Part shown: positions 35,451-64,000 of the stretch, piece after piece | Numbering within the stretch: position 1 is the stretch's first letter | Layout of the letters: each line of letters starts with the position of its first letter | Assembly (NCBI GenBank): GCA_003158675.1 | Contig: PMKN01000014.1 | Coordinates: 7,843 to 71,842, forward strand | DNA: 64,000 nt | DNA from: Chloroflexota bacterium | Lineage (GTDB): Bacteria; Chloroflexota; Limnocylindria; Limnocylindrales; CSP1-4 | Direction of reading: 5' to 3' | Position numbers and translations under genes: made by a program | Notes under the pieces: model-generated | Database searches by the model: none | What the model was told of the DNA's origin: nothing | What the model saw: only the letters and a program-made list of their open reading frames with translations

Positions 35451-35504
35451 CGTTCAGCGCTAGCGGTTCAGCGTCGATTCGGCAGCCGGACGCCAGGAGG
35501 AGCC

Positions 35505-37010: not shown

Positions 37011-37073
37011 TCTGCCGGGCCGGCGCGCCACCGTCCGGGCCTCGAGTCGGGGCGCCGTCCATACTTGCGGGCA

Positions 37074-38321: not shown

Positions 38322-38434
38322 GGGCGATGCGCCCGTATCGATCTTGGCCGTGACCTGGAGCGCGGCCATGCCGCAGCGTGGGCCGAAAGTTCCCGTGCGC
38401 CCGCCCTTCGAGGACCCGGCGTAAGCTCGGTTGC

Positions 38435-38854: not shown

Positions 38855-38949
38855 CCGAGCGGCCTCCCCGGGCGGCGGTGCGGTGAACTCGGTTCGGATG
38901 TCGGTTCGTCCCGGTCGCCGTACGGCGGTATCGAGTAGGGTTTGCCGTC

Positions 38950-46678: not shown

Positions 46679-46826
46679 GACCGCTGTGCGCGTCCAATTG
46701 AGCCTTCGCGTTTCCGCGGCTCCGAGATGGCCAGCTGTCGAGCCGGGGTCGCGACGCGGTCCAGAAGCGTAGTGGATCGGCCGAAGACTCCCCTGCTAGT
46801 TGGACGTTCCAGACGTGGAAGGACCC

Positions 46827-50313: not shown

Positions 50314-50327
50314 TCAGTGCCGTCCCG

Positions 50328-51353
50328 TCATGGCAGTCGGCCCAACCACAGAAACGAGGTCATGGCGCCGACGACCATGAGCACCAGGCTCAAAGCCGCC
50401 AGGAGCGAGGTGATCTCCGTCAGCTGTGGCTGGACCACAACCTGGCTGTCGATGCTGTCGTAAACCGAGCGGAGCTGCTGCGTGTCGCTCGCGGCGTAGT
50501 ACGTACCGCCCGTCGTATCGGAGATGGATTGCAGGGTGGTCTGGTTGAGTTGGGTAAAGACCTGGAAGCCATTGAGCGTGACCGTGGTTCCGGCCGCGCT
50601 GCCGATGCCAACGGTGTCGATCCTGACGCCGCGGTCCGCGGCGGCCTGGGCCGCAGCCGCCGGATCGGGGTTCTCGTTGTTCTCGCCGTCGCTCAGGAGA
50701 ACGATGACGGCCGGCGCGTGAGTCCCCGACGGCACTGGAGTCGGGGTCGGTATGGGCGTCGCGGATGCGCCGGGGTTCTGGTTCGTGTAGTAGTCGTTGG
50801 CGTATGGTCCCGCCTCCGCGATGGCTATGGCCTTGAGGGCGGCGTCGATGCCCTGCGCCAGCGACGTTCCGTGCTGGGGTGTCATGCGGTCGATTGCCGC
50901 CACCACCGTGGCCTGATCGGCCGTTGGGGCCTGGACCGAAACGCCCGAGTCGCTGAACGCGACCACCCCAATGGTCACCGTCGACGGTTCACGAGAGACG
51001 AAGTCCTTGGCGGCCGCTTTGGCGGCATCAATCCGAGTCGGGGTCAGGTCACTGGCCCCCATGCTGGCGGAAACGTCGAAAGCCAGGATGACGGTGCCTT
51101 CTTGCCGGGGCAGGCTGACGACCGCCTGAGGCCGGGCCAGCGCGACGAGCATGGCGGCCAGCCCGCCGAGGACGAGCGTTGCCGGGACGAGGCCGCGCAG
51201 TCCGGCCCCACGGCGGGTCACGCCATGGGCCAATCCGGCGCCGCCTCGGGCTACGAAACGTCGACGGCGCCGAACGTCCAGGAGTCGGTAGAGCAGGAGT
51301 CCGATCGGAATTAGCGCCAGCGACAGGAGCATCGGCGGCCAGATGAATGACAT
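50328..51353 (-). CDS. VWA-domain membrane protein (BatA-like)
   Basis: N-terminal TM MSFIWPPMLLSLALIPIGLLLY, MIDAS ILAFDVSASM, VLLSDGENN and a C-terminal TM. Confidence 0.85.
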   Translation of the reverse strand: MSFIWPPMLLSLALIPIGLLLYRLLDVRRRRRFVARGGAGLAHGVTRRGAGLRGLVPATLVLGGLAAMLVALARPQAVVSLPRQEGTVILAFDVSASMGASDLTPTRIDAAKAAAKDFVSREPSTVTIGVVAFSDSGVSVQAPTADQATVVAAIDRMTPQHGTSLAQGIDAALKAIAIAEAGPYANDYYTNQNPGASATPIPTPTPVPSGTHAPAVIVLLSDGENNENPDPAAAAQAAADRGVRIDTVGIGSAAGTTVTLNGFQVFTQLNQTTLQSISDTTGGTYYAASDTQQLRSVYDSIDSQVVVQPQLTEITSLLAALSLVLMVVGAMTSFLWLGRLP

Positions 51354-51356
51354 CGG

Positions 51357-52385
51357 CTAGATCCTGCGCCTGCGCCGAAGCGTGGCCATACGGACGATGG
51401 ATCGGACGAGGTCCTCGTCCGTCGAGAGCGAGAGCGCCTCCACGCCGGCCCTCTTGAACGCGCCCGAGATCTCGGCCTCGCGCCGCAGGGCGGCTTGTTT
51501 GAAGCGGCTCCGGAACGCGGCGTCGTGAGTGTCCACATACAGCTGCTCGCCGGTCTCGGCGTCTTCCATGATGATCGGACCGACGTCGGGCAAGTCGATC
51601 TCGCGCGGGTCGAACAAGCGGACCGCCACAACTTCGTGCCGGCCGCTCAGCAGGCTCAACGGCCGATCCCATCCGGGAGCGCTGATGAAGTCCGAGACGA
51701 TGAATATCAACGAGCGGCGCTTGACCGTCCGCTGGCCGGCTTCCAGCAACGGCGTGAGGTCCGTGAACGGAGCGCTCTCCAGTCGGGGGTGCTTGGCCAG
51801 GTCGTCTATCAGCCGCAGCACCTGGTCTCGACCGCCTCGCGCCGGGATCGTTCTATCGATTGCGTTGCCGTAGAAGATCGCGCCCACCCGGTTGCCGCGT
51901 CTCGTGAGCAGCCGTGCCAGCGTTGCCACGAAGTCGATCAGGACGGTTCGTTTGGCGCGGTCCGAGTCCACGCTGCCGAAGTCGACCGAGGGGCTGAGGT
52001 CCAGCAGGAACCAGGCCGTGATCTCGCGATCCTCGACGTATTCACGCACATAGGGCGTGTCCATTCGAGCGGTGACGTTCCAGTCGATCGACCGCACATC
52101 GTCCTCGGGCTGGTACTCCCGAAGGTCCACGAGGTCGATGCCGTTGCCGCGGAAGAGGCTGCGGTAGTTGCCCTGCAGGACGCCGTCGAGGCGGCGAATG
52201 ACCTGCCACTCGAGACGCTGGAGGATCTTCTCGGCCGCCGCGACGGGTCTCACCGACGTGGGCGCCGACCCGGGCTCGGGCGTCGCCGCGGTCGTGCCGG
52301 GGCCGACCGGAGAAGAGGCGATCGAACTGGCGGCGAGGTTCTCTGGCGTGAAGAGCGGTCGCGTCGGGACACGGGTCGGCGGCAT
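51357..52385 (-). CDS. DUF58 domain protein (MoxR-system partner)
   Basis: GNYRSLFRGNGIDLVDLREYQPEDDVRSIDWNVTAR is the hallmark DUF58 block. The stop is 3 nt from the start of the next gene. Confidence 0.85.
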   Translation of the reverse strand: MPPTRVPTRPLFTPENLAASSIASSPVGPGTTAATPEPGSAPTSVRPVAAAEKILQRLEWQVIRRLDGVLQGNYRSLFRGNGIDLVDLREYQPEDDVRSIDWNVTARMDTPYVREYVEDREITAWFLLDLSPSVDFGSVDSDRAKRTVLIDFVATLARLLTRRGNRVGAIFYGNAIDRTIPARGGRDQVLRLIDDLAKHPRLESAPFTDLTPLLEAGQRTVKRRSLIFIVSDFISAPGWDRPLSLLSGRHEVVAVRLFDPREIDLPDVGPIIMEDAETGEQLYVDTHDAAFRSRFKQAALRREAEISGAFKRAGVEALSLSTDEDLVRSIVRMATLRRRRRI

Positions 52386-52455
52386 CGGGACAGGCGTCCG
52401 CGGCGCCGCGGCTGCCTCCCCTTCCGGCGCCTGCGAAGCGCTCCAGATCGGTCGC

Positions 52456-53466
52456 TCAGGCGCTGGCGCGGACGTTGGTCTTCTCCCTGAGTGGCACCAC
52501 CGGTACCGGAATGCGGTTGAGGACCGTCGTCAGCACGTCGTCGGCGGTCACGTTGTCGGAGAGTGCCTCGAACGACAAGACGAGCCGGTGGCGCATCACG
52601 TCGCGCGCCATGTCGACCACGTCCTGCGGTAGCGCGTAATCCCGGCCGCGGACAAAGGCAAGCGCCCGGGCGGTGAGGATGAGGTTGATCGAGGCACGGG
52701 GACTGGCTCCGTACGTCAGGTAGCGCTCCAGCTCCGGCATGCCGTGAGCTTTGGGTGCGCGCGTCGAAGTGGCGAGGCGGACGGCATAGTCCATGAGTGC
52801 CGGATCCACGAAGACGCGATCGGCCTGCTGCTGCAGCTCGATCAGGCTGCGCGTCGAGAGCACTTCCTGGACCGGTTCGAGCCGGCCCGTCATCCTCTCG
52901 ACGATCACGAACTCCTCTGTCGGACTTGGGTAGCCGACCAGGACCTTGAGCATGAAGCGATCGACCTGGGCTTCGGGCAGCGCGTAGGTACCTTCGGTCT
53001 CGATCGGATTCTGCGTTGCCAGAACGAGGAAGGGGTCCGGCACTTTGTGAGTCTCGCGGCCAATTGTGACCTGCCGCTCCTGCATCACTTCGAGGAGAGC
53101 GCTCTGGACCTTGGCCGGCGCTCGGTTGATCTCATCGGCCAGCAGCAGATTCGTGAACACCGGTCCCAGTGACGTGTTGAAGTCGCCGGTCTTCTGGTTG
53201 TAGATCCTGGTGCCGACCAGGTCCGCCGGAACGAGGTCGGGCGTGAACTGGACGCGCTTGAACTCGCCGCCGATCGCCTCCGCCAGGGTCTTGATGGCCA
53301 TCGTCTTGGCCAGTCCGGGCACGCCTTCGACGAGAAGGTGGCCGCGCGCGAGAAGCGCCACGGCGAGCCGTTCCAGGAGGTGATCCTGGCCCACGATGAC
53401 CTTCTTGACCTCGTACAGGAGGCGCTCCATGGGCGCTTCGTTTGCGATGTCGGATAGGGCGGTCAT
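52456..53466 (-). CDS. MoxR-family AAA+ ATPase
   Basis: VIVGQDHLLERLAVALLARGHLLVEGVPGLAKT (Walker A), LLADEINRAPAKVQSALLEVMQE (Walker B and sensor) and QNPIETEGTYALPEAQ. Confidence 0.93.
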   Translation of the reverse strand: MTALSDIANEAPMERLLYEVKKVIVGQDHLLERLAVALLARGHLLVEGVPGLAKTMAIKTLAEAIGGEFKRVQFTPDLVPADLVGTRIYNQKTGDFNTSLGPVFTNLLLADEINRAPAKVQSALLEVMQERQVTIGRETHKVPDPFLVLATQNPIETEGTYALPEAQVDRFMLKVLVGYPSPTEEFVIVERMTGRLEPVQEVLSTRSLIELQQQADRVFVDPALMDYAVRLATSTRAPKAHGMPELERYLTYGASPRASINLILTARALAFVRGRDYALPQDVVDMARDVMRHRLVLSFEALSDNVTADDVLTTVLNRIPVPVVPLREKTNVRASA

Positions 53467-53511
53467 GTGTCGTCTTCTCCTGGGCGTTTGGGTTTGGATC
53501 GGCCTGCCGGT

Positions 53512-54468
53512 TCAGTCCGGTGGCAGCCCGGCGGCTCCACCGGCAACGTCGATCGGCACGGCCAGCCCGATGCCGATGAAGACGCCTTGGTCGGTGGGAT
53601 TGATAAGTGCAGAAACGATCCCGATCACCTGGCCGCTGCGGTTCACCAGCGGCCCGCCGGAGCTCCCCGGGTTGACCGCGGCGTCGATCTGGATCAGGCC
53701 CTTGACAAGGGGGCCGTTGTCGGGGAGCTGGAAGGAGCGATTCAAGCCGGAGACGATGCCGGAACTCATCGAGCCGCTCAAGCCAAAGGGGTTGCCGAGA
53801 ACGAAGGCTTCGCTGCCGACCTGCACGCTCCTGGGGTTGCCCAGCACGGCCGGTGTGAGCTGGGCGGGCTGATTGGTCGCCCGCAGCACGGCGATGTCGC
53901 TCTGAGGTTGCGAACTCTGGACCTTGGCCGGTGACGTCGTCCCGTCGGCGAACGTCACCTCGATGGAAGTTGCGTTGGCCACTGTGTGCCAGCAGGTGAG
54001 GATATCGCCGTCGCTGTTTACAACCACACCGCTGGCGAGATTGCCGTCTCCCACGCTCGAGGACGCTGGCACGCCCGAAGGCGGCGGGCCGCTCGGCGTT
54101 GCGCCGGCGCCCGCCGTTGCGCCTGCGCTTGGACCCTGAGTCCGCACCTGCACGAGCGAAGGCTCGACGGCCTGATAGATCCGTTGGGCGACGGCCGGCG
54201 CGGGAGTGACCGACGCCTGTGCCTGGGCGATGCTGCGGGCCACGTCCTGCTGAGTCAGCGGTTTCGGGCCGGGATTGATGGCCCCGTACAACTGGAGCGC
54301 GACGAGGAGTGCCAGGATCCCAGCCAGGAATGAGCCCGTCGGTCGGGCTCGGTCCTTGAACCGCGCGAACATCCGGATGCTCCGGCGTCCGCCGGCGCCG
54401 GGCCTGTCCTGCTGCGGTGTCATGTCCAGATCGATCTCCGGTCCGTCTCGTCGCGGACGATTACTCAC
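53512..54468 (-). CDS. Membrane-anchored S1C trypsin-like serine protease (no PDZ)
   Basis: GTG start. One TM helix (FLAGILALLVALQLYGAI). Catalytic blocks TCWHTV, DIAVLRA and GSSGGPLV. Confidence 0.85.
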   Translation of the reverse strand: MSNRPRRDGPEIDLDMTPQQDRPGAGGRRSIRMFARFKDRARPTGSFLAGILALLVALQLYGAINPGPKPLTQQDVARSIAQAQASVTPAPAVAQRIYQAVEPSLVQVRTQGPSAGATAGAGATPSGPPPSGVPASSSVGDGNLASGVVVNSDGDILTCWHTVANATSIEVTFADGTTSPAKVQSSQPQSDIAVLRATNQPAQLTPAVLGNPRSVQVGSEAFVLGNPFGLSGSMSSGIVSGLNRSFQLPDNGPLVKGLIQIDAAVNPGSSGGPLVNRSGQVIGIVSALINPTDQGVFIGIGLAVPIDVAGGAAGLPPD

Positions 54469-54663
54469 TCTGCTGCAGAGTCACTGGCAATGCTGAGAGC
54501 AACCTGAATCCCTGCAACCAGCGCAACGCCAGATCGCTGCCGCCAATCGCGGCCCTGGCGCAGTCCGCCCCGGTCGGAGCGAACGACTACGCTGACACCA
54601 AACGGCCGCGATCGAACCGTCGTGGAACCACCCTAGCGAACTGGGCCGACGTAGGAGGAAGCA

Positions 54664-55224
54664 GTGGGCCAGGAGAAGGACCGGATGATTCGGGGCGAAC
54701 TCTACTACGCCTTCGACCCTGAACTGGTCGCCGACCGCCTGCGGGCCTCTTTGCTGTGCGAGAGGTTCAACGCCACGAGCGCAACACAGGACGCGGAACG
54801 GCACGAGATTCTCAAAGAGCTTCTAGGGCACGTCGGCGAAGACGTCATCATCCTGCCGCCATTCCGATGCGACTACGGCTACCTGTTGAGCATCGGCAAG
54901 AGGTCGTTCATCAACTACAACGCCATCGTCCTCGACAGCGTGCCTGTGACGATCGGCGAACGCACCTGGATCGGGCCCGGCCTGCAGCTCTACACCGCCA
55001 CCCATCCGCTCGATGCGGCAACGCGGACCGCGGCGCGCCCGCTCGAGTCGGCCGAGCCGATCGCGATCGGCGACGACGTGTGGCTTGGCGGGGGCGTCAT
55101 CGTCCTGCCGGGCGTCACGATCGGAGACGCGGCTGTAATCGGTGCGGGCAGCGTTGTAACCCGTAACATTCCGCCGCGCGTTCTGGCCGTGGGCAATCCC
55201 TGCCGCGTGATTCGCCAGCTCTGA
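54664..55224 (+). CDS. maa: Maltose/galactoside O-acetyltransferase (hexapeptide-repeat)
   Basis: The GTG start has AGGAGGAAG upstream. MIRGELYYAFDPELV...ERF (Mac N-domain), a left-handed beta-helix (IGDDVWLGGGVIVLPGVTIGDAAVIGAGSVV) and GNPCRVIR. Confidence 0.85.
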   Translation: MGQEKDRMIRGELYYAFDPELVADRLRASLLCERFNATSATQDAERHEILKELLGHVGEDVIILPPFRCDYGYLLSIGKRSFINYNAIVLDSVPVTIGERTWIGPGLQLYTATHPLDAATRTAARPLESAEPIAIGDDVWLGGGVIVLPGVTIGDAAVIGAGSVVTRNIPPRVLAVGNPCRVIRQL

Positions 55225-55293
55225 CCGGGCGGCATGCCCCGCTCTGGGGGCATGGCGAACGTGGGCTAGAGCGTACCGCCGTTCTCCCGCGCG

Positions 55294-55973
55294 CTACCGC
55301 GCGGGCGCGGGTGCGATGGCAGCCTTCAGCAAGCGGTACGACGCGACGAGCAGACGGGCAACCTCGGGCCAGTAGGCCGCACCGCGTCCTGTCGGGCCGT
55401 CCGGATCGGCGGTTGCGCCGCGATCCCGGACCTCCGCGGCGAGGCCACGCAACCGGCCCGCCTCTGCGACCGCGGCCACGGGAACGCCGTACAGCACGGA
55501 GTACAGCTCGGCGATAACCGACCCAGCCGCTTCGCCGGCGGCGAGCCCGATCTCGCGGCGCACCGTCCACCAGCGTAGCTCCCGGCGCGCGACTTCTTCC
55601 GCATCCACGCCATCGGGGAGACCCAGCATTCGGTATCCTCGGACGATGTCGTGCAGGTAGGCGGCGTCGTCGCGTTTCGTGGCGTCGCGGGCGTCGCCCC
55701 AGCCGGTTCGCCCGAAGGGGCGGCCGCGCCATGAGCCAGCAGAGCCGCCGCGGCGACGGCGCGCGGCCAGGAGGCGCCGGCCTGCTCGCGGTTCGCGTGC
55801 ACAAGCAGGCCAAACAGCCGGGCCGGTTGGCGCCGGTAGTACGCCTTCCACATCTTCAACTCGAGAACGGCGAGGCGGTCCGGGTCGAAGTCCCGCCCCC
55901 AGGACACGTGGGTAGCGCTCACGTCCCGATTGTTGCCGACTGGAATAGGGATTCGCGACCCTTCGCCAAACAC
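55294..55973 (-). pseudogene. Frameshifted conserved hypothetical gene (or assembly error)
   Basis: The coding-like N-terminal half (MFGEGSRIPIPVGNNRDVSATHVSWGRDFDPDRLAVLELKMWKAYYRRQPARLFG...) is in the frame of track ORF 55326..55973. The coding-like C-terminal half (GWGDARDATKRDDAAYLHDIVRGYRMLGL...YWPEVARLLVASYRLL) is in the frame of track ORF 55294..56031. The switch is near 55710-55725. Confidence 0.55.
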
Positions 55974-56119
55974 GTCCCGTCAAGTGGTGTAGCTGGAGTC
56001 CAGACGTCACTGCCTGACGGCGGACTCGCATGGCAGGAAGCGGCCGGACTGGGTCCGCCGCTTCCTGACCGCTTTGGGATTGGAGTGAGTAGTTGGCGGC
56101 GGCCCCGGGGCGGCCAGCC

Positions 56120-57832
56120 TCAGTGCGAGTCGATCACATTGATCGTGGGGTCTCCCGGACCAACCGGCCAGTTGGTGCAGGTTGGGGCCGCGTTGTTCCA
56201 GGACCAGACTAGGAATCCCCCGACGCCGGCGTTGAGCATGGCCGTCAGTTTCGCCTCATACGCGGCGGCGCGGCTGGCGAGGGTGCCGCCCACGCTGGTG
56301 GCCTTGATGCCCGACTCGCCGACGAAGATCGGCTTGCCGAGAGCCTTGCAGGCCGCGATGTCGCTGACGAGATTGGCCGGGAGCGCCTGGGTCTCGTGGC
56401 CGTAGTCGTGGTATTCGCAGACGTCGATCGTGGAGATCGAGTTGATCTTCTGGTAGTCGGCGCCCTGGCTGCCGCACTGTCCGGCGCCCATGGTCCCGAG
56501 CGACACGAGGTGGTTGGGGTCGATCGACTTGATCAGGCCCGAGACGTCGGTCGCCCAGTTGTAGAGGTCGGCCGTGGGCGCGCACGAGGATGAGCTGCTC
56601 GTCTTGATCTCGGCCTCGTTCATGAGCTGCCACATCGCGATCGTCGGATCGTCCTTGTAACGAGAGACGACCTCCTGGACCCACTGCCGATATGCGACGG
56701 TGTTGCCGGCCAGGATGTCCGTCTTGTACCCACCCGTGTACCAGGCATCGGTCTTGTAGACGCTAGTGGGGCTCTCGCACGACCCCCACTGGTTGGCAAG
56801 GGTGACGACCACACGGACGCCGTGGGCCTTTGCCACTGCCAGAGTGTGATCGAAGGCGCTCCAGTCGCGCTGGCCGTTGGTGGTCGCCAGACGCTGGAAG
56901 AACCAGGCCCGGAAGACCTCGGATCCGGGCCCGATGTCTGTCAACGCAGTGTCGAGTGCGCTGCCGGAGCCCATCGTGTACGAGCAGTTCGAGCGGCTGT
57001 TGGCCTGGTAGATGTTGAAGCCAGTGAAGGTGAAGGGCTGGCCCGCGAGCGTGAACTGGCTGCCGGATCGGCCCAAGAAGCCGGCGGGGGCGGGCGTCGG
57101 GGCTGCCGTCGGCGCGGGCGTGGCCGTCGGAGCGGCCGTCGGCGCGGGCGTGGCCGTCGGCTTGGCCGTCGGTGCGGGAGTCGGGGCTGCAGTCGGAGCG
57201 GCCGTCGGAGCGGCCGTCGGAGCGGCCGTCGGTGCGGGGGTCGGGGCTCCCGTCGGAGCCGGCGTCGGGGCTGCCGTCGGCTTAGCCGAGGGTGATGCCG
57301 TCGGCTTGGCCGTCGGAGCGGGCGTCGGCTTGGCGCTGGGCGTCGGCTTGGCCGTGGCCGTTGGAGCGGGCGTCGGCGTGGCGTCTCCGTCTCCGTCGCC
57401 GACTGAGAATCTGGCGCTAACGGCGGTCGAACCGGACGACGTCTCGACCATGACGGTGATCGAGTGGGCGCCCCTAGCGACCTTGCTCGTATCCCACGGC
57501 TTGGCAGTGCCATTGTCCGCGGTTCCGGCGAAATCGACCGGCGCGGAGCCCTCCACGTGCGTTGCGGGCCCGGTCATGGCGGTGTTGTCGAGCCAGAAGC
57601 TGGCCTTGTTCACGCCGTCGGTGGGCGAAAGGAAGATGTAGGAGTTGCCGGACAACGTGGCCCCGGACAATGCGACCGCAGCGCTCCGATTGGAGGAACG
57701 GGAAGCCATGAGGGCATAGGGCGAGTTGGTCGCCGCGTTGGCGACCACCGAAATCTGCAGAGCGGCGACGGCACCGATCAGCAGGACCAGGCGCGGCCAG
57801 TGACGGAGCGGCGACAAAGAGGTTGCAGTCAT
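56120..57832 (-). CDS. Secreted GH5 glycoside hydrolase (beta-mannanase-like) with N-terminal Ig-like domain and a Pro/Thr/Ala linker of about 100 aa
   Basis: Track ORF 56120..58039 trimmed to ATG 57832 (GGAGA upstream; signal peptide [19 protein letters not shown]). GH5 blocks [14 protein letters not shown] (acid/base Glu) and FVGESG (nucleophile Glu). Confidence 0.85.
57100..57400 (-). repeat. Low-complexity coding repeat (Pro/Thr/Ala linker) including a 12-bp tandem unit
   Basis: GTCGGAGCGGCC occurs three times back to back at 57192-57227, flanked by related GTCGG(N)GC(N)G units. It encodes (AAPT)n/(APTP)n. Confidence 0.8.
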
Positions 57833-58306
57833 GACGGTCTCCGAACTGCCTGAGGCGGTCTGGGCGTGTGTGGGCCCATTGATGACGGCGGGGGTGTTGC
57901 GGTCGATTGTGACTGGCGAAGGCCGCCGCCGGCCATGGCCTAATGGGGCCCGCCCACGGTCGCCCGAATGTCCCCACCTCGCGACGCGTGGCCAGGTCCA
58001 GATGGGTAGGTGCCATTGCCTACCCTGCGCCCCGGCCAACCCGGGTCCGTTAGCTCCCGGCGGGAACGTCTTGATCCGCCGGTCGGCCCGGTCGTCTCAT
58101 GGGTCGAGCCCTCGATTGACTCACCTTTGGGCCTACTGGACCCTGCCTGGGACACGGACGGGTTCTGGTTGCTGCCCCAGCTGGCCCGATCGACTCAGCC
58201 GTCTCCGTGCGGCGCTGCAAGTTCCTCGATCGGTGGATTCCATGCCAAACCGAACCTACCCGTCCTTCCTATGCATACCTGCGCCAGCATCTGAGCGAGA
58301 CCGGGC

Positions 58307-60016
58307 GTGAGCGCCGGCGCTGCGATTCCCGTAGGAGAGCGCGACCGAGCCGCGTCATCAAGCTCACTGGCCCTGACTCTGCGCCGCCCCGGCGAGCGGT
58401 TTCTCGTGACGAGTCTGGCCTGGGTCGCGTACATGGCCGCTGCGGTGCTCATCGTTTTGGTGGCGCACAGCATCATCGGTGACGCCTGGAGCCGCGTCGC
58501 CAACGCCTATTACGTTCTCTACAGCCGCGATCCTCACCTGGCCGCGATCGGCTTCGTCTGGAATCCACTGCCGTCGCTGGCCGTAATTCCCTTGCTCCCC
58601 TTCAAAGCCGTCTGGCCGGACATGGTCGCGACGGGGTTTGCCGGGAGCATATTCACGGCACTGTGCATGGCCGGCGCCGTCTGGCAGGTCCACGGCATCG
58701 CCACGGACTGGCAGGTGAGGCGATCGGGACGGCTGCTCGTCACGCTTCTGTTCGCCTTCAACCCGATGATCGTGTACTACGCCGCCAATGGCATGAGCGA
58801 GGCGCCGTTCATGCTGGCGCTCCTGGCAGCGGTGCGATACCTCTCCAGGTGGGCGACGAGCCATCAGGTACTCCCGCTGTCCGTCGCTGGGCTGGCGATG
58901 GCGGCCGCATATCTGATCCGCTACGAGGCGGTCGTGGCCGCCGCTGGCGCCGTGGGGGTGGTCATCCTTCTGTCGGCACTACGCCGGTCCGGCGGCATGC
59001 GCGAGCGAGTGGGGGAAGGCATGGCCGATGCCGCCGTGTTCGCGGCGCCCTTCATCACCGTCTTCATCGCGTGGGCCGTGGCCAGCTGGTTGATCGTCGG
59101 CGATCCGTTCCAGCAGTTCACCTCTATCTACGGAGTCGTATCCCAGCTCACCGTCGCGCAATCCGGAGTGGCACAGGTCACCGGCCAGGGAACGTCCGGC
59201 GCCTACATGTGGGTCGTGCGCCAGATACTCGGCCTCGAGCCCGGGATCGTCCTGCTCGGTCTCTTCGGCCTGGCCGTGACGTTTCGCGGGCGGTTGGCGT
59301 TGACGATGCCCGCGGTCGCGATCCTGGGGGCGGTCGTCGCTTTCGCGATATTCGGGTTCCTCTCCGGCCGAACGCTTGGATGGCTGCGCTATTCGATCGC
59401 CGTGATCCCCCTGGCCTCGGTTCTAGCCCTGGCGGTTCTGGCGCCGAATCCGGACCGGTCGGCAACGCCTCGGCTCCGGTTCGCGCGCCTGGGCGCCGCC
59501 ACCGGTCCTGCAATGGGCCTGGCGGCCGTTGCCCTTCTGGCATTGGCCGTCCCCGTCGGGGCGATGACGATGCTCGATCTGCACCAGAACCCGGACTACG
59601 GCGGAGAGGCATTCCAGCTCCGACCGATCCTGTTTCCGAATGAGCCGATCGCCAGGATCTCACCGTTCGCCCAGTACGAGATCGGCCGGCAGGCCGCCAC
59701 ATACATCGACGGCTTGGGGCTGGGCAACGGCCAGGTCCTGGTCGACGGCGCGATGGGCTTCCCGATCATCCTCGAGTCCCGCAATCCCACTCAGTTCATC
59801 ACGACGTCCGATCGCGACTTCCAGGAGGCGCTTCTGGATCCGGTTTCATTCAAGGTCAAGTACCTCCTGGTGCCCGAGGACGTCGGCTACCAGAGCCTTG
59901 ATGCCATCAACCGCGCCTATCCCGGCATCTACGAGACGGGCGGCGGCGTAAGCCAGCTCGTCCAGCAGTTCTCGGCCGGTGGCAACAACTGGCGCTTGTA
60001 CCTGGTCGGGCAGTGA
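58307..60016 (+). CDS. GT-C fold polytopic membrane glycosyltransferase (ArnT/PMT-like)
   Basis: 569-aa track ORF. About 11-12 hydrophobic helices are followed by a soluble C-terminal domain of about 150 aa. The architecture and the loop-1 acidic residue (YSRDPH) are typical of lipid-linked-sugar transferases. The family call is from architecture, not from a strong motif. Confidence 0.65.
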   Translation: MSAGAAIPVGERDRAASSSSLALTLRRPGERFLVTSLAWVAYMAAAVLIVLVAHSIIGDAWSRVANAYYVLYSRDPHLAAIGFVWNPLPSLAVIPLLPFKAVWPDMVATGFAGSIFTALCMAGAVWQVHGIATDWQVRRSGRLLVTLLFAFNPMIVYYAANGMSEAPFMLALLAAVRYLSRWATSHQVLPLSVAGLAMAAAYLIRYEAVVAAAGAVGVVILLSALRRSGGMRERVGEGMADAAVFAAPFITVFIAWAVASWLIVGDPFQQFTSIYGVVSQLTVAQSGVAQVTGQGTSGAYMWVVRQILGLEPGIVLLGLFGLAVTFRGRLALTMPAVAILGAVVAFAIFGFLSGRTLGWLRYSIAVIPLASVLALAVLAPNPDRSATPRLRFARLGAATGPAMGLAAVALLALAVPVGAMTMLDLHQNPDYGGEAFQLRPILFPNEPIARISPFAQYEIGRQAATYIDGLGLGNGQVLVDGAMGFPIILESRNPTQFITTSDRDFQEALLDPVSFKVKYLLVPEDVGYQSLDAINRAYPGIYETGGGVSQLVQQFSAGGNNWRLYLVGQ

Positions 60017-60050
60017 ACCCGCAGGCCCTCAGACAAGGGAGGCTCTAGTC

Positions 60051-63000
60051 GTGAAGCGGACCAGCATCGTCGTCAGGCTCGCCGGCATGGCCGCGCTGCT
60101 CGCCGGCCTCACGTTTCCCGGCGCAATCGCGGCGCCTGCCCAGGTTGCCGCGGCAGCTCCCGCAACCGACTGGCCGATGTACCTCCACGACAGCCAGCTC
60201 ACCGCCGCCAGCTCCGAGACGATCCTGACTCCGGCGGCTGTCCCGACCCTCCGGCCGCTGTGGACCTACAAGACCGGCGGCATGATCGCCGCGTCGGCGA
60301 CCGTCGTGGGGGGCGTCGCCTACGTGGGATCGTGGGACGGCTTTGAATACGCCCTCAACGCCACCACCGGAGCCCTCATCTGGAAGACATCGCTTGGCAT
60401 AACCACGGCACCGGCCTGCTCGCCGCCGGCACTGGGAGTCTCGTCAGTTGCAGCGGTCGTGGGCGGCGTGGTGTACGTCGGGGGCGGCGACTCGAACTGG
60501 TATGCGCTCGACGCCGCCAGCGGTTCCGTGCTGTGGAGCGTTCCCACCGGCGACAACAGCGCCACTGGCGGGCACTATAACTGGTCGAGCCCGCTGATCG
60601 TAGGCAACTCGGCCTACATCGGCATCGCCAGCCTGGGCGACTGCCCGCTGGTCCAGGGCCAGCTCCTGCGCGTCGACCTGACGACCCACGCGGTCGTGGC
60701 TACGGTCAACTTCGTCCCCGCCGGGCAGGTGGGTGGCGGCATTTGGACCACACCCTCAATCGACCCCTCGACGAACACCGTCTACGTCACCACCGGGACC
60801 CGGAATATGGCCAGCCAGACCACGTCCGAGGCCATGGTCGCAGTCGATGCCACGACCCTCGCCATCAAGAGCTACTGGCAGATTCCCTTGAGCGCCGCCA
60901 ATGCGGACTCGGACTGGGGCAACTCGCCGATCCTCTTCAGCGATGGCAACGGCCGGGCGATGGTCGCCGGCGTCAACAAGAACGGCTTCCTGTATGCCTT
61001 CGACCGGACGAACCTCGCTCTCGGTCCGCTCTGGTCCGAGCAGGTCGCGGTGGGTGGCATCTGCCCGACGTGCGGCGACGCCAGCGTCGCGTCGATGGCC
61101 TTCGCCCAGGGCACCCTCTATGTCGGAGGGGGCAACACGACCATCAATGGCGTGGGCTACCAGGGAGCCGTACGAGCGGTCAATCCGACGACCGGAGCCG
61201 TACTCTGGGCTCGGGGCCTGGCCAGTCCAGTTATCCCGGCCCTGGCCTATGACAATGGCATGGTCTTCGCCGGCGTGGGGTCGCGCCTGGAGGTCCTGGA
61301 CGCCACAACCGGCGCCCGCCTCTTCAGCTACGCGACCGGCGGCGTCATCTACGCGCCGCCGTCGATCTCAGGCGGGGTCGTATACATCGGTTCCGGCGAC
61401 GGCAACGAGTACGCTTTTGCTGCCACCACCCCGATCACGCCCCCGGCCGACGGCAATTGCCCGAGCGGCTTCGTCTGCCAGGACATCGGCTCCGCGGCGC
61501 CCGCCGGCAGTGAGATAGTCACCTCCGGCTCGTGGGCCATCTCCTCCGGTGGAGCAGCAGTCGGCGGCACCTCGGACGCGCTGCGGCTGATGAGCCAGAC
61601 GGCGACGGGCGATCTCGCGGCTCAGGGCCGCGTCGCCGCCCAGGCCGCCGCCGGCGCCGGCACCGAGTCGGGCCTGATGGTTCGCCAGACCAACGACCCG
61701 GGCTCGCCGTTCTACGCCGTCAGCGTCGCCGGCGCCACGTCGGTCTCCGTGCAGTCCCGCACCGTCTTCGGGGGCGCCGTCAAGACCGTCAATCTCGCCG
61801 CGACGACCCTGCCGCTCTATCTCGAGATAGTGCGCACCGCCGACAGCTTCGCCGCAGCAACCTCGACCGACGGCGTCACCTACACCCTCGTTCCGGGCGG
61901 CACCGCCACCGTGGTGATGCCGGACGCGGTCATGGTCGGGCCTTTCGCAACATCGGGCACCAATGGAACGCTTACCACCTCGACGATCGACACCCTCACC
62001 GTCGGGGCTACCGGAGTTGCGCCGGTGCCCGCGGCATCGCCTTCGCCCTGCCCCTCGGGCTGGTCGTGCACCGACCTCGGTGACCCGTCGGCCGTGGGCA
62101 ATCAAACACTGACCTCTGGAACCTGGACGATCAGCGGCTCGGGCTCGGCTACCGGCAACAACATCTACACCGACCAGCTGCACTACATCTGGCAAGCCAT
62201 AGCGGGCGATGCCACGCTCTCCGCGCACATCGCCACTCAGGCCAACACGTCGGCCAGCGCTCAGGCGGGCCTCGCGTTCCGAGCCGACGCCACAACCGCC
62301 GGCGCGGTCTTCTACGGCGCCTACCTGACGCCGACGAAGGGCATCCAGATCGTCTACCGGACGACCACGGGGCTGCGGTCCACCCTGGTCATGACTGCGA
62401 CCGGCGCCGCCCCTGCCTACCTGCAAATCACCCGGTCCGGGAACACGTTCACCACCTTCACCTCGACCGACGGGGTCACCTGGTCGGTTCTGGTGGGCTC
62501 TAGTGTGACCTTCGGGTCGGGTGGCTCGATGACGGCCGGGCTGGTTGTCAACTCGAATACCGCCGCGCTCGGAACAGACACATTCGACACGGTCTCACTC
62601 ACCAACTCGGCGGCGCCACCGCCCAGTCTTTGCCCCACGGGCTGGACCTGCCAGGACATCGGCAACCCGACGCCCTCAACCGGATCCCAGTACGTGGTAG
62701 CTCCCAGCTGGTCGATAACGGCCGGCGGCAGCGACATCTGGGGCACCTATGACGGCTTCCGGCTCTTGAGCCAGTCTCTGGCAGCCGACGGGACGATGAG
62801 CGTCCGAGTCGACTCTCAGACGAACACGTCGACCTGGGCCAAGGCGGGCGTGATGATGCGCTTGACCAACGACCCTGGGTCGCCGTATTTCGCCGAGTTC
62901 ATGACGCCCGGCAACGGCATCGCCATCCAGTGGCGTACGACGCAGGGCGGCAGCTCGTCGCAGATCCTCGTCGCCGGCACGGTGCCGGCCTGGCTCGAGG

Positions 63001-64000
63001 TCGGTCGATCGAGCGGCACGTTCACCGCCTACACCTCGGCCGATGGCGTTACCTGGACCGCGGTGCCAGGCGCAAGCGTCGCCCTGACGATGACCGGCAC
63101 CTTGCTGGCTGGCCTCGCGGTCACGTCGCACAACGGCGGCCAGATGGGCACCGCGACCTTCGATACGCCTGCCCTGTCCACGTCCGCTCCTCCGCCTCCG
63201 GGTGCCTGCCCAACGGGCTGGACGTGCTCCGACATCGGCAACGTCGGCATCGCCGGCGGCCAGGCGCTCACCGCCGGGACCTGGACTATCCAGGGCGGCG
63301 GCGGCGACATCTGGGCCGTTGCGGACAGCTTCCACTACGCTTGGCAGTCGCTCGCCACAGACGGCGGCATCAGTGCGCGCGTCGTTGCTCAGACGAACAC
63401 GTCGGCATGGGCTAAGGCCGGGGCGATGCTCCGCGCGACCACCGATCCGGGTTCGCCGTATTACGCCGCGTTCGTGACGCCTGGCAACGGGATCGCGGTC
63501 CAGTGGCGCTCGGCGCAGGCCGCGGCCACCTCTCAGGTGCTCGTGGCCGGATCGCCGCCCACCTACCTGGAGGTCGCCCGCTCGGGCGGCATCTACTCCG
63601 CCTATTCGTCGCCCGACGGCGCCACCTGGACGCTCGTGCCTGGATCGACGGTGAACCTCGGACTGACCGGCACGGTTCTGGCCGGGCTGGCTGTCACATC
63701 CCACAACTGGGGCGTGCTGAGCACGGCCACGTTCGACACGGTGGCGTTGGCTCATTTGACCCCGCCCTGGCTCGACGGAGATATCGGCGCACCGGCCAAG
63801 GCAGGCTCCGCCAGTTCGACGAGCGGCGTCTTCACGATCAGCGCCGGCGGCGCGGACATCTTCGGAACCTCCGACCAGCTCAACTATGCCTACCAGCCGG
63901 TCACGGGCGATACCACGCTCGGCGCCCGCGTGGTGACGCAGACGAACACGAGCGCCTGGGCGCGGGCCGGAGTCATGCTCCGCTCCACGACGGCCGCCGG
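60051..64000 (+). CDS. Partial giant secreted protein (more than 1316 aa, continues past the window): signal peptide + PQQ-like beta-propeller + at least 5 tandem concanavalin-A-like (DUF1349-like) modules
   Basis: Not in the supplied track. I translated this plus-strand frame (start 60051) by hand from GTG 60051 (AAGGGAGG at 60035-60042, in-frame TAG at 60045) to 63998 and found no stop.
- Signal peptide: VKRTSIVVRLAGMAALLAGLTFPGAIAAPA.
- Propeller blades: VVGGVAYVGSWDGFEYALNATTGALIW, VVGGVVYVGGGDSNWYALDAASGSVLW and others.
- Modules begin at 61458. Confidence 0.85.
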   Translation, partial: MKRTSIVVRLAGMAALLAGLTFPGAIAAPAQVAAAAPATDWPMYLHDSQLTAASSETILTPAAVPTLRPLWTYKTGGMIAASATVVGGVAYVGSWDGFEYALNATTGALIWKTSLGITTAPACSPPALGVSSVAAVVGGVVYVGGGDSNWYALDAASGSVLWSVPTGDNSATGGHYNWSSPLIVGNSAYIGIASLGDCPLVQGQLLRVDLTTHAVVATVNFVPAGQVGGGIWTTPSIDPSTNTVYVTTGTRNMASQTTSEAMVAVDATTLAIKSYWQIPLSAANADSDWGNSPILFSDGNGRAMVAGVNKNGFLYAFDRTNLALGPLWSEQVAVGGICPTCGDASVASMAFAQGTLYVGGGNTTINGVGYQGAVRAVNPTTGAVLWARGLASPVIPALAYDNGMVFAGVGSRLEVLDATTGARLFSYATGGVIYAPPSISGGVVYIGSGDGNEYAFAATTPITPPADGNCPSGFVCQDIGSAAPAGSEIVTSGSWAISSGGAAVGGTSDALRLMSQTATGDLAAQGRVAAQAAAGAGTESGLMVRQTNDPGSPFYAVSVAGATSVSVQSRTVFGGAVKTVNLAATTLPLYLEIVRTADSFAAATSTDGVTYTLVPGGTATVVMPDAVMVGPFATSGTNGTLTTSTIDTLTVGATGVAPVPAASPSPCPSGWSCTDLGDPSAVGNQTLTSGTWTISGSGSATGNNIYTDQLHYIWQAIAGDATLSAHIATQANTSASAQAGLAFRADATTAGAVFYGAYLTPTKGIQIVYRTTTGLRSTLVMTATGAAPAYLQITRSGNTFTTFTSTDGVTWSVLVGSSVTFGSGGSMTAGLVVNSNTAALGTDTFDTVSLTNSAAPPPSLCPTGWTCQDIGNPTPSTGSQYVVAPSWSITAGGSDIWGTYDGFRLLSQSLAADGTMSVRVDSQTNTSTWAKAGVMMRLTNDPGSPYFAEFMTPGNGIAIQWRTTQGGSSSQILVAGTVPAWLEVGRSSGTFTAYTSADGVTWTAVPGASVALTMTGTLLAGLAVTSHNGGQMGTATFDTPALSTSAPPPPGACPTGWTCSDIGNVGIAGGQALTAGTWTIQGGGGDIWAVADSFHYAWQSLATDGGISARVVAQTNTSAWAKAGAMLRATTDPGSPYYAAFVTPGNGIAVQWRSAQAAATSQVLVAGSPPTYLEVARSGGIYSAYSSPDGATWTLVPGSTVNLGLTGTVLAGLAVTSHNWGVLSTATFDTVALAHLTPPWLDGDIGAPAKAGSASSTSGVFTISAGGADIFGTSDQLNYAYQPVTGDTTLGARVVTQTNTSAWARAGVMLRSTTAA
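61458..64000 (+). repeat. In-frame tandem module repeat, periods about 591/582/576/564 nt
   Basis: The module-opening motif C-P-(S/T)-G-(F/W)-x-C-x-D-(I/L)-G occurs at 61458, 62049, 62631 and 63207. A Cys-less variant LDGDIG occurs at 63771. The internal blocks QTNTSxWA(K/R)AGxMxR, DPGSPY, TPGNGIxxQWR and LAGLAVTSHN recur. Confidence 0.85.

What the first reader, a model, noticed from the sequence alone, without database searches (positions are those of the whole stretch)
60051..64000. Giant secreted PQQ-propeller / tandem lectin-like module protein that the ORF track does not show
The plus-strand frame starting at 60051 is open from GTG 60051 to the end of the window, more than 1316 codons. 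It has a good Shine-Dalgarno and a signal peptide. It was probably omitted from the track because it has no stop in the window, and the long minus-strand ORFs listed over it are shadows.
- Residues about 40-460 form PQQ-like propeller blades.
- After that, modules of about 190 aa repeat at least five times.
- Each module opens with a two-Cys motif, C-P-(S/T)-G-(F/W)-x-C-x-D-(I/L)-G. The fifth module has the Cys-less variant LDGDIG.
- Each module carries GGxDIW, QTNTSxWAKAGxMxR, DPGSPY, TPGNGIxxQWR, SxDGxTW, LAGLAVTSHN and FDT.
I interpret the modules as concanavalin-A-like (DUF1349-like) jelly rolls. Modules 3-5 are much more alike than modules 1-2, suggesting stepwise amplification. A PQQ propeller feeding into a string of lectin-like modules next to a GH5 and a GT-C is an architecture I cannot place in any characterised family.
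Basis: partly seen in the sequence, partly recalled or inferred. Interest (0 to 1): 0.7.

Follow-up and report, generated by a model that had tools for sequence, protein, structure and literature searches.

The report
Secreted propeller protein with lectin-like repeats
The window ends inside a real 1,709-codon gene for a secreted protein, an eight-bladed propeller followed by six lectin-fold modules; the family is common in soil Chloroflexota and related phyla, has no known function, and usually sits directly after a membrane glycosyltransferase gene.

Summary
The plus frame from GTG 60051 is open to the window end (1,316 codons, GC3 0.86) and has a GGGAGG ribosome-binding site and a Sec signal peptide. 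The minus-strand ORFs over it are shadows. An almost identical public contig completes the gene at 1,709 aa: signal peptide, 8-bladed PQQ_2/BamB-class propeller, five DUF1349 modules, a ~105-aa spacer and a sixth module.

AlphaFold and Foldseek confirm both folds. The propeller is closest to PQQ alcohol dehydrogenases and BamB. The module (pLDDT 96) is closest to the solved DUF1349 proteins, the GH43 C-terminal domain, legume lectins and CBM66.

- The strict motifs occur only in M3-M5.
- The amplification is old: synonymous sites are saturated, and M3-M5 have 1:1 orthologues in close relatives.
- The architecture is not rare: over 1,000 database clusters and 330 loci in species-representative genomes, auto-named "BamB family / PQQ-binding-like".

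No member has been characterised.

The new lead is synteny. The gene follows a GT-C-like membrane glycosyltransferase across phyla, and that gene is often fused or adjacent to a PgaC/CelA-like GT2. A sister protein swaps the DUF1349 tail for PA14 modules but keeps this linkage. The best reading is an extracytoplasmic glycan-binding partner of a surface-glycan machine. Interest is modest.

The parts
60037..60042 (+). Shine-Dalgarno GGGAGG; its last base is 8 nt upstream of the GTG start
   Evidence: sequence read directly
60051..64000 (+). 5' 77% (codons 1-1316 of 1709) of the propeller / DUF1349-array gene. The full length comes from contig L001, which is 99.85% identical in DNA.
   Evidence: GC3 is 0.86. 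The two SNPs against L001 that fall inside the gene (60200, 61532) are both third-position and synonymous.
60051..60131 (+). Sec-type signal peptide, aa 1-27, with predicted cleavage AIA|AP and no lipobox
   Evidence: Sequence read directly. One hydrophobic segment at aa 4-22. Homologues have equivalent N-termini.
60168..61430 (+). Eight-bladed PQQ_2/BamB-class beta-propeller, aa ~40-460. It carries family-invariant polar loops: GDNSATGGHYNWSSP (60549-60593), DSDWG (60906-60920), NKNG (60975-60986) and CPTCGD (61062-61079).
   Evidence: Pfam PQQ_2 at 62.7 bits. AF2 pLDDT 85.9 and pTM 0.87. Foldseek hits to PQQ-ADHs and BamB. Conservation in A1. Coordinates.
61458..62021 (+). Module M1 (aa 470-657), a DUF1349-type ConA-like module with a C-x5-C knob. 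It is the divergent 'first-module' type that holds its position across the whole family.
   Evidence: best match is module 1 in 113 of 119 homologues
62049..62606 (+). Module M2 (aa 667-852) with a C-x5-C knob; holds its position across the family
   Evidence: best DUF1349 stretch 704-852; 103 of 119
62631..63182 (+). Module M3 (aa 861-1044) with a C-x5-C knob; carries the full consensus motifs
63207..63758 (+). Module M4 (aa 1053-1236) with a C-x5-C knob; this is the module that was modelled
   Evidence: AF2 pLDDT 96.1. Foldseek best matches are 3MEP and 3O12, both DUF1349.
63765..64000 (+). Module M5, first 78 of 186 residues; Cys-less variant (PWLDGDIG), cut by the window end
58307..60016 (+). 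GT-C-like (PMT_2-like) polytopic membrane glycosyltransferase. It has at least 8 TM segments and a ~150-aa C-terminal soluble domain. Its TGA stop lies 34 nt before the target's GTG, so co-transcription is likely. The true start may be at about 58406.
   Evidence: (16 of 17 homologues hit PMT_2; the window copy scores 24.1 bits, below the 26.1 cut-off). No terminator-like site between the two genes.
56120..57820 (-). Divergently transcribed secreted GH5: signal peptide, ~110-aa N-terminal domain, ~100-aa Pro/Thr/Ala linker and GH5 catalytic domain
61368..62426 (-). Shadow ORF, not a gene. The ORF at 62676-63755 (minus strand) is the same kind of shadow.
   Evidence: GC1 0.86 and GC3 0.58-0.60

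Best explanation
The gene encodes a Sec-secreted protein with no membrane anchor. It is built as a conserved eight-bladed propeller 'head' followed by a 'tail' of six concanavalin-A-fold DUF1349 modules joined by short Pro/Ser/Thr-rich linkers.

It is most likely co-transcribed with the GT-C-like membrane glycosyltransferase immediately upstream. I propose that it is the extracytoplasmic partner of that glycan-building or glycan-decorating machine:
- The multivalent tail binds the glycan that the transferase(s) put on the cell surface.
- The highly conserved propeller either docks on the transferase or acts on the nascent glycan.
- The flanking secreted GH5 enzymes trim the same polymer.

Shown: the gene, its secretion signal, both folds, the module array, and the conserved gene linkage.

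Inferred: glycan binding, physical or functional coupling to the transferase, and the role of the GH5 enzymes.
For: 1. Folds. The propeller model is confident and 8-bladed. The module is a ConA-like beta-sandwich whose nearest solved structures are DUF1349 proteins, carbohydrate-enzyme accessory domains, lectins and CBM66.

2. Export. There is a signal peptide, no further TM segment and no anchor motif. All but one of the Cys residues fall into candidate disulfide pairs: 123/198, 338/341 and four C-x5-C knobs. This fits an extracellular protein.

3. Linkage.
- The GT-C-like stop lies 34 nt upstream with no terminator-like site between. In the 78% orthologue the two called genes meet at the same coordinate, base 10001 of L002.
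- Of 59 related loci with at least 4.5 kb of upstream sequence, 37 have a GT-C-like gene upstream on the same strand.
- 25 of those also have a PgaC/CelA-like GT2.
- The GT2 and GT-C-like parts share one ORF in 10 loci and are adjacent in 15.
- 50 of 80 loci have a GT-C-like gene somewhere within the flanks.

4. Linkage follows the head, and the tail is interchangeable. In L022/P0263 a propeller 62% identical carries five PA14 domains plus a sub-threshold CBM60 hit (no stretch passed the threshold). It sits about 100 nt or less after a GT2 + GT-C-like pair. Two unrelated tails that both belong to carbohydrate-binding-type families argue that the tail binds glycan.

5. Conservation. The propeller is more conserved (52-63% identity across the 30 diverse family members aligned, with invariant polar loops) than the modules.

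6. Precedent. In Streptomyces, the synthase CslA needs the extracellular propeller protein GlxA (PMC11022532).
Against: - No DUF1349 domain has a demonstrated ligand, so 'lectin-like' rests on fold alone.
- 21 of the 59 loci with enough upstream sequence have no transferase upstream. Some of these are second or third copies in one genome.
- The window's own clade lacks the GT2, and no such GT2 exists anywhere in the 64-kb window.
- The GH5 neighbours are conserved only in the close clade.
- The window's GT-C-like protein is below the Pfam PMT_2 cut-off and has no match to a solved structure.
- ConA-like folds also include enzymes.
- The strongly conserved polar loops of the propeller would fit a catalytic site as well as a docking surface.
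Confidence: 0.45

Rival explanations
1. The protein is a secreted carbohydrate-active enzyme. The propeller would be an as-yet unclassified catalytic domain (hydrolase, lyase, or PQQ/metal-dependent oxidoreductase). The DUF1349 modules would act as CBM-like targeting modules, working with the GH5s on environmental or microbial polysaccharides.
For: - 'Conserved head plus interchangeable binding tail' is the usual CAZyme layout. Here the tail can be DUF1349, PA14, or other repeats.
- The propeller has invariant Asp/Asn/His/Ser-rich loops.
- The best structural matches are PQQ/lanthanide alcohol dehydrogenases, and the cofactor-less enzyme tetrathionate hydrolase is also among the hits.
- Two secreted GH5 genes flank the gene in the close clade.
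Against: - No catalytic family model is met: TIGR03075 scores 104 bits against a 480 cut-off, and PF01011 gives no hit for this protein.
- The propeller is 125-165 aa shorter than PQQ-ADHs (TM-score on the target side 0.5-0.6).
- The neighbour conserved across phyla is a biosynthetic transferase. It is not a transporter, regulator or hydrolase set of the kind typical of degradative loci.
Confidence: 0.25
2. The protein is mainly a substrate of the adjacent GT-C-like enzyme. It would be an O-glycosylated surface-layer or sheath glycoprotein whose Pro/Ser/Thr linkers are glycosylated during export, as Pmt does in Actinobacteria.
For: - The GT-C-like family matches PMT_2 and PMT models.
- The gene pair is tightly linked.
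- The inter-module linkers are Pro/Ser/Thr-rich, and the protein is 24% Ser+Thr.
- The neighbouring GH5 has a ~100-aa PT linker.
- Pmt uses polyprenol-phosphate-mannose to glycosylate secreted proteins (PMC5882110, PMC11727336).
Against: - The window GT-C-like protein lacks the canonical Pmt Asp-Glu pair. Its invariant motif is D59-A-W-S-R.
- It is below the PMT_2 cut-off and gives no PF02366 hit.
- Frequent fusion with a processive PgaC/CelA-like GT2 points to polymer synthesis, not protein glycosylation.
- This reading is not exclusive of the best explanation.
Confidence: 0.15
3. The protein is a true PQQ-dependent alcohol or sugar dehydrogenase.
For: The top 25 Foldseek matches are PQQ/lanthanide dehydrogenases. 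TIGR03075 gives a partial match, E 6.6e-30.
Against: - The score is 104 bits against a cut-off of 480, and the best-scoring matched stretch covers model positions 13-188 of 530.
- There is no vicinal Cys-Cys; the propeller Cys residues are at 123, 198, 338 and 341.
- No cytochrome or electron-acceptor partner is nearby, and none of the window ORFs scanned against Pfam matched a PQQ-biosynthesis family.
- The domain is only 435 aa.
Confidence: 0.05
4. The protein is a BamB orthologue, that is, an outer-membrane-protein assembly factor, as public annotation names the family.
For: Pfam PQQ_2 is met. BamB structures align with a TM-score of about 0.8 on the BamB side.
Against: - TIGR03300 scores 53 bits against a cut-off of 285, and NF008351 scores 38 against 423.
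- There is no lipoprotein signal.
- About 1,250 extra residues of lectin-fold modules follow the propeller.
- By established knowledge, the host phyla (Chloroflexota, Dormibacterota, Actinomycetota) are not known to use a Bam machine of this type.
Confidence: 0.02

Closest known systems
Uncharacterised database family 'outer membrane protein assembly factor BamB family protein' / 'PQQ-binding-like beta-propeller repeat protein'. Examples: Tengunoibacter tsumagoiensis P0051, Ktedonobacterales P0095, Candidatus Dormibacter P0105.
   Same: - Full-length homology at 45-79% identity.
- The same order of signal peptide, propeller, M1-type module, then Cys-knob DUF1349 modules.
- The modal module count is six.
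   Different: The window's clade (about 30 of the top 120 hits) ends with two Cys-less modules split by a ~105-aa spacer. Most other members end with Cys-knob modules. No member has an experimentally tested function.
DUF1349 single-domain proteins with solved structures: ECA2234 of Erwinia carotovora (3MEP) and a yeast protein (3O12). From memory, also B. subtilis YesU.
   Same: Same Pfam family, scoring above the cut-off. They are also the best structural matches, with TM-scores of 0.62-0.74.
   Different: The solved proteins are single-domain and have no assigned function. Here there are six tandem secreted copies, four of them with an N-terminal C-x5-C knob, fused to a propeller.
PQQ/lanthanide-dependent alcohol dehydrogenases (PedH 6ZCV, XoxF 6DAM, ExaA 1FLG)
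   Same: Eight-bladed propeller with similarity in the N-terminal blades; TM-score of about 0.77 on the query side.
   Different: - The propeller here is 125-165 aa shorter.
- The curated family cut-off is failed by a wide margin.
- There is no vicinal disulfide.
- The cofactor ligands could not be verified.
E. coli BamB
   Same: Compact 8-bladed PQQ_2 propeller with no known cofactor; TM-score of about 0.8 on the BamB side.
   Different: BamB is an outer-membrane lipoprotein of diderm bacteria. This protein has no lipobox, fails the equivalog cut-offs and carries a large lectin-fold tail.
Streptomyces CslA-GlxA(-CslZ) cellulose synthase system (PMC11022532). From memory, BcsA-BcsB-BcsZ is similar.
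   Same: The logic is the same: a membrane glycan synthase, a co-encoded extracellular beta-propeller or carbohydrate-binding partner, and a nearby endoglucanase-type GH. Relatives of the window locus have a PgaC/CelA-like GT2 directly upstream.
   Different: - There is no sequence relationship.
- GlxA is a membrane-anchored radical copper oxidase, with a kelch-type propeller by my recollection.
- The transferase next to the window gene is GT-C-like, not GT2.
- This is an analogy, not membership.
Actinobacterial Ppm1/Pmt protein O-mannosylation (PMC5882110)
   Same: A GT-C enzyme of the PMT/PMT_2 clan acting outside the membrane on secreted proteins with Pro/Thr-rich segments.
   Different: The window enzyme lacks the canonical loop-1 Asp-Glu pair and does not reach the Pfam cut-offs.

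Membership tests
Pfam PQQ_2 (PF13360) beta-propeller | Score at or above the gathering cut-off of 27.6 bits | tested here: met
   62.7 bits for the window part and 57.5 bits for the full-length protein
Pfam PQQ_2 (PF13360) beta-propeller | Eight-bladed propeller fold | tested here: met
   The AF2 model (pLDDT 85.9, pTM 0.87) has eight 4-stranded blades. All top Foldseek hits are 8-bladed PQQ-ADH or BamB structures.
Pfam DUF1349 (PF07081), ConA-like clan | Score at or above the gathering cut-off of 32.4 bits | tested here: met
   51.7 bits for the window part. The full-length protein scores 78.3 bits with 5 stretches.
Pfam DUF1349 (PF07081), ConA-like clan | Concanavalin-A-like beta-sandwich fold | tested here: met
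   The AF2 model of module M4 has pLDDT 96.1. The best PDB matches are 3MEP and 3O12, followed by the GH43 C-terminal domain, legume lectins and CBM66.
Lectin / carbohydrate-binding module (functional sense) | Demonstrated or residue-level predicted sugar-binding site | not testable with these tools
PQQ-dependent alcohol dehydrogenase (TIGR03075 / PF01011) | Curated score cut-off of 480 bits | tested here: not met
   104.2 bits, with the best-scoring matched stretch covering model positions 13-188 of 530. PF01011 gives no hit at E <= 0.1.
PQQ-dependent alcohol dehydrogenase (TIGR03075 / PF01011) | Vicinal Cys-Cys disulfide over the cofactor (type I ADH/MDH hallmark, from established knowledge) | tested here: not met
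   The propeller Cys residues are at 123, 198, 338 and 341, and none are adjacent.
PQQ-dependent alcohol dehydrogenase (TIGR03075 / PF01011) | Glu/Asn/Asp metal ligands and the catalytic Asp in place | not testable with these tools
   Foldseek returns no residue alignment. The HMM alignments printed were dominated by designed 'Cake' propellers.
BamB (TIGR03300 / NF008351 equivalogs) | Curated cut-offs of 285 and 423 bits | tested here: not met
   53.1 and 37.9 bits
BamB (TIGR03300 / NF008351 equivalogs) | Lipoprotein signal with a lipobox Cys | tested here: not met
   The signal peptide ends AIA|AP and contains no Cys.
Propeller + DUF1349-array family (uncharacterised, auto-annotated) | End-to-end homology with the same domain order | tested here: met
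   The top 120 hits cover 65-100% of the query at 43-100% identity. M1 and M2 are positional orthologues in 113 and 103 of 119 homologues.
GT-C glycosyltransferase, PMT_2-like (the upstream neighbour) | Pfam PMT_2 cut-off of 26.1 bits | tested here: inconclusive
   The window protein scores 24.1 bits, below the cut-off. However, 16 of 17 aligned homologues hit PMT_2 (best E 2.5e-10) and 6 of 17 hit PMT.
GT-C glycosyltransferase, PMT_2-like (the upstream neighbour) | Polytopic membrane protein with an invariant acidic residue in the first extracytoplasmic loop | tested here: met
   At least 8 hydrophobic segments. D59 is invariant, directly after TM1, in 17 homologues. That the loop faces outward is inferred.
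Canonical protein O-mannosyltransferase Pmt (GT39) | Asp-Glu pair in loop 1 and a PF02366 match | tested here: not met
   The motif is D-A-W-S-R, and the window protein has no PF02366 hit.

The most novel reading that the evidence does not exclude
The conserved gene set may be an undescribed synthase-dependent surface-glycan or exopolysaccharide system. The set is an optional PgaC/CelA-like GT2, a GT-C-like membrane protein, and a secreted propeller with an interchangeable glycan-binding tail. It occurs in Chloroflexota, Dormibacterota and Actinomycetota. In this reading the propeller protein plays the role that BcsB or GlxA play in cellulose systems: it docks on the synthase and handles or modifies the nascent chain. 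The propeller might also be a new carbohydrate-active catalytic domain.
Probability: 0.2. Interest if true: 0.6.

Novelty: new member of a known kind. Interest (0 to 1): 0.3.

Why it matters
For this window, the practical result is an annotation fix. A real 5.1-kb gene runs off the end of the window and replaces two shadow ORFs.

More broadly, the family is abundant in peat and soil Chloroflexota and Dormibacterota. The cell-surface biology of these phyla is almost unknown, and public databases mislabel the family as 'BamB'.

The family's consistent linkage to GT-C-like and GT2 transferases offers a concrete, testable entry point to how these organisms build or organise surface glycans. Several cultured relatives carry the locus (Tengunoibacter, Dictyobacter, Streptacidiphilus).

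It is not a new kind of system on present evidence. Every domain belongs to a known fold family, and the architecture is common.

Tried and rejected
- DNA-level repeats. Tandem Repeats Finder found no array with the module period. Module DNA identity is only 48-68%, so there has been no recent duplication.
- Literature. Eleven papers mention DUF1349, none about its function. Ten mention 'PQQ-binding-like beta-propeller', none about this family.
- Spacer domain (aa 1425-1530, beyond the window). It has no significant Pfam or PDB sequence match. Calling it Ig-like would be a guess from its alternating residue pattern.
- GT-C-like protein against PDB sequences. Neither the single sequence nor the profile matched anything.
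- PQQ ligand mapping. The profile-versus-PDB alignments printed were taken up by designed 'Cake' propellers, so the residue-level check could not be done.
- c-di-GMP link. One relative's GT2 (L022) has an MshEN domain. tblastn found it in no other locus and not in the window, so I dropped it as a general feature.
- Regulatory and RNA scans. No promoter-like or terminator-like sites in 57700-60300, no tRNA genes, and no Rfam matches.
- PEP-CTERM or sortase anchoring. An exosortase lies 8 kb downstream in L002. The protein ends ...FTPGP with no sorting motif, so I rejected this.
- Upstream alternative start at about 59979. I rejected it in favour of GTG 60051 because of the SD spacing, the signal peptide beginning at the first residue, and the homologues' N-termini.

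Full report
**1. The observation**

The plus-strand frame from 60051 to the window end has 1,316 sense codons and no stop. From the window's base composition a frame this long stays open with probability about 8e-13. GTG is at 60051-60053, and GGGAGG at 60037-60042 ends 8 nt upstream.

Codon-position GC is 0.59/0.61/0.86, the pattern of real genes in this 68% GC window. The two long minus-strand ORFs over the region (61368-62426 and 62676-63755) have GC1 0.86 and GC3 0.58-0.60, so they are shadows. The ORF lister omits ORFs that run off an end, which explains why the gene was missing from the track.

The N-terminus MKRTSIVVRLAGMAALLAGLTFPGAIA|AP reads as a Sec signal peptide without a lipobox.

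**2. Full length**

A public ENA contig (L001, 12.3 kb) matches window 53291-64000 at 99.85% DNA identity. It differs by four substitutions and one 12-nt in-frame indel in the GH5 linker. The two substitutions inside the gene are third-position and synonymous.

L001 completes the gene at 1,709 aa (P0001), so the window holds 77% of it. The layout is:

| Part | Residues |
|---|---|
| Signal peptide | 1-27 |
| Propeller | about 40-460 |
| M1 | 470-657 |
| M2 | 667-852 |
| M3 | 861-1044 |
| M4 | 1053-1236 |
| M5 (Cys-less) | 1239-1424 |
| Spacer, no database match | about 1425-1530 |
| M6 (Cys-less, divergent) | 1531-1709 |

There is no C-terminal anchor. The total is therefore six modules, not an open-ended string.

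**3. Domains**

*Family scans.*
- Pfam gives PQQ_2 at 62.7 bits (cut-off 27.6) and DUF1349 at 51.7 bits (cut-off 32.4). On the full-length protein DUF1349 scores 78.3 bits with five stretches, and there is a weak GH43_C2 hit.
- NCBIfam gives only sub-threshold hits: PQQ alcohol dehydrogenase at 104 bits against 480, and BamB at 53 against 285.

*Propeller model.* An AlphaFold model built on 30 diverse homologues is confident (pLDDT 85.9, pTM 0.87) and has eight blades. Foldseek ranks PQQ/lanthanide alcohol dehydrogenases first, with TM-score about 0.77 on the query side but only 0.5-0.6 on the target side. BamB follows with about 0.8 on the target side. Tetrathionate hydrolase is also among the hits.

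*Module model.* The model of M4, built on 46 module sequences, has pLDDT 96.1. Its best matches are the two solved DUF1349 proteins (3MEP and 3O12), then the GH43 xylosidase C-terminal domain, legume lectins, CBM66 and ERGIC-53.

**4. The modules**

*Similarity within the protein.* M3-M4 share 61% identity, M3-M5 54% and M4-M5 55%. M1-M2 share 32%, and M6 shares 28-50% with the others.

*Age of the duplications.*
- Third-codon-position identity between any two modules is 42-55%, including M3-M5. Synonymous sites are therefore saturated.
- No DNA-level tandem repeat is detectable.
- M1 and M2 are positional orthologues in 113 and 103 of 119 homologues.
- M3-M5 each have a 1:1 orthologue in the close relatives examined (P0003, P0012, P0027, P0034) at 57-81% identity. 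For M3 and M4 this is clearly above the 54-61% paralogue identity; for M5 only partly. In distant lineages the 'M3-type' modules are interchangeable.

The M3-type subfamily did expand, but long ago.

*Architecture across the family.* Among the top 120 homologues, 84 have six modules and the range is 3-9. The general layout is propeller, then an M1-type module, then Cys-knob modules, with optional Cys-less modules at the end. The window's exact layout is shared by about 30 close relatives.

**5. How common is it**

- The word-indexed search found 1,041 clusters at E <= 1e-10 among the 8,000 candidates scored. All of the top 120 carry the propeller, and all but three also carry DUF1349 in their precomputed Pfam list. 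The only names given are 'outer membrane protein assembly factor BamB (family protein)' and 'PQQ-binding-like beta-propeller repeat protein'.
- A scan of one genome per species found 330 loci. They lie in Chloroflexota (fen and Danish-soil MAGs, Ktedonobacterales, Dictyobacter, Tengunoibacter), Dormibacterota, Actinomycetes (for example Streptacidiphilus) and some Acidobacteriota-labelled MAGs. Some genomes carry several copies.
- The closest relatives (82-89% identity in the propeller) are Chloroflexi fen MAGs, so the window is most likely from such an organism.
- An exhaustive search of 1.84 billion 50%-identity representatives with the propeller plus M1 gave 1,618 hits at E <= 1e-30.
- No paper in the library deals with the family or with DUF1349 function.

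**6. Context and the main new lead**

*In the window.* The gene follows a 569-aa polytopic membrane protein (58307-60016), with a 34-nt gap and no terminator-like site. Divergent from this pair is a secreted GH5 with a ~100-aa Pro/Thr linker.

*The membrane protein.* It is GT-C-like.
- It scores 24.1 bits on PMT_2, just below the cut-off.
- 16 of 17 aligned homologues hit PMT_2, and 6 of 17 hit PMT.
- D59 is invariant, directly after the first TM segment.
- It is not a canonical Pmt.

*Across related loci.*
- Of 59 loci with enough upstream sequence, 37 have a GT-C-like gene upstream on the same strand.
- 25 of these also have a PgaC/IcaA/CelA-like GT2.
- The two transferase parts share one ORF in 10 loci and are adjacent in 15.

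*Close clade.* GH5, GT-C-like gene, target, then a second GH5 is the conserved order.

*The linkage follows the propeller, not the tail.* In L022/P0263 a propeller 62% identical carries five PA14 domains instead of DUF1349 modules. It still sits about 100 nt or less after a GT2 + GT-C-like pair. Other relatives fuse the same propeller to Kelch, CarboxypepD_reg or Rib arrays, or have no tail at all.

**7. Mechanism**

The best-supported reading is a secreted partner of a membrane glycan-building machine.
- The multivalent ConA-fold tail binds the surface glycan.
- The propeller is the most conserved part, with invariant polar loops GDNSxxGGHYNWSSP, DSDWG, NKNG and a CxxC loop. It either docks on the transferase or acts on the glycan.
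- The GH5s trim the polymer.

The Streptomyces CslA-GlxA complex is a functional precedent but not a relative (PMC11022532).

All functional steps are inferred. What is shown is the gene, its export signal, the folds and the linkage.

The rivals are:
- an enzyme-plus-CBM design with a catalytic propeller;
- a glycoprotein substrate of the GT-C-like enzyme (Pmt-type logic, PMC5882110);
- a true PQQ dehydrogenase;
- BamB.

The last two fail their curated cut-offs and hallmark features.

**8. Verdict**

The finding is real and its fold interpretation is right. It describes a member of a large, catalogued family that has never been characterised. It is not a one-off architecture, and its module array is old. 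Interest is modest. The conserved linkage between transferase and propeller is the part worth following.

Noticed in passing
L003/L062 6322-9936; also L015, L016, L026, L037, L041, L046, L054, L058, L059 (upstream of the family gene): A single ORF of about 1,200 aa (stop-to-stop frames 3.6-4.6 kb) fuses a PgaC/IcaA/CelA-like GT2 domain to a GT-C-like membrane domain. That domain is 30% identical over 210 aa to the window's 58307-60016 protein. In 15 other loci the two parts are adjacent genes. I know of no described GT2/GT-C fusion synthase.
   Followed up: partly
L022 3932-11864 (protein = P0263): A sister architecture: the same propeller (62% identity) with five PA14 domains and long Pro/Thr linkers. 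It lies directly after a GT2 + GT-C-like pair. That GT2 carries an MshEN (c-di-GMP receptor) domain, found in this locus only.
   Followed up: partly
P0031 (2153 aa, 360-kb NCBI/ENA contig), residues ~1611-2153: Three consecutive C-terminal Cys-less modules are 100% identical in protein sequence. This is either a very recent tandem amplification in that lineage or an assembly artefact.
   Followed up: no
window 61062-61079 (aa 338-343): A nearly invariant C-P-x-C-G-D loop in the propeller falls in the only low-confidence internal stretch of the model (pLDDT < 50). It could be a redox or metal CxxC site, or a disulfide. A few homologues lack both Cys residues.
   Followed up: no
window 57192-57203: A 12-nt in-frame indel lies in the Pro/Thr linker of the GH5 gene. 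It is the only length difference between the window and the otherwise 99.85% identical public contig L001, so linker length varies between strains or assemblies.
   Followed up: partly
window 6848-10741 (-): A second giant ORF (1,297 aa) with five RCC1 propeller repeats, a He_PIG Ig-like domain and two fn3 domains. It sits next to an ABC-2 transporter pair (10674-13321).
   Followed up: no
window 49216-53466 (-): A MoxR (AAA_3) - DUF58 - VWA - VWA/BatA operon, followed by a trypsin-like protease (53512-54468). Upstream is a PAS-PAS-EAL protein (46800-49157).
   Followed up: no
window 15837-18986 and 31384-40398: A GT4 glycosyltransferase followed, about 1 kb downstream, by a GH130 (beta-1,4-mannooligosaccharide phosphorylase family) gene. 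Separately, a run of LacI, L-fucose isomerase, FGGY kinase and two MFS genes that looks like a fucose-type utilisation operon.
   Followed up: no
P0009, P0014, P0021, P0025 (orthologues); spacer at aa ~1425-1530 of P0001, beyond the window: The unassigned ~105-aa spacer between M5 and M6 is duplicated in some orthologues, where the gap is about 210 aa. It has no Pfam or PDB sequence match.
   Followed up: partly
L002 18064-25127: In the 78% orthologue's contig, several genes lie 3-10 kb downstream of the target: a PKD + DUF1349 protein, a 753-aa unassigned protein, an exosortase EpsH homologue and a GT2. The equivalent region lies beyond the window end.
   Followed up: no
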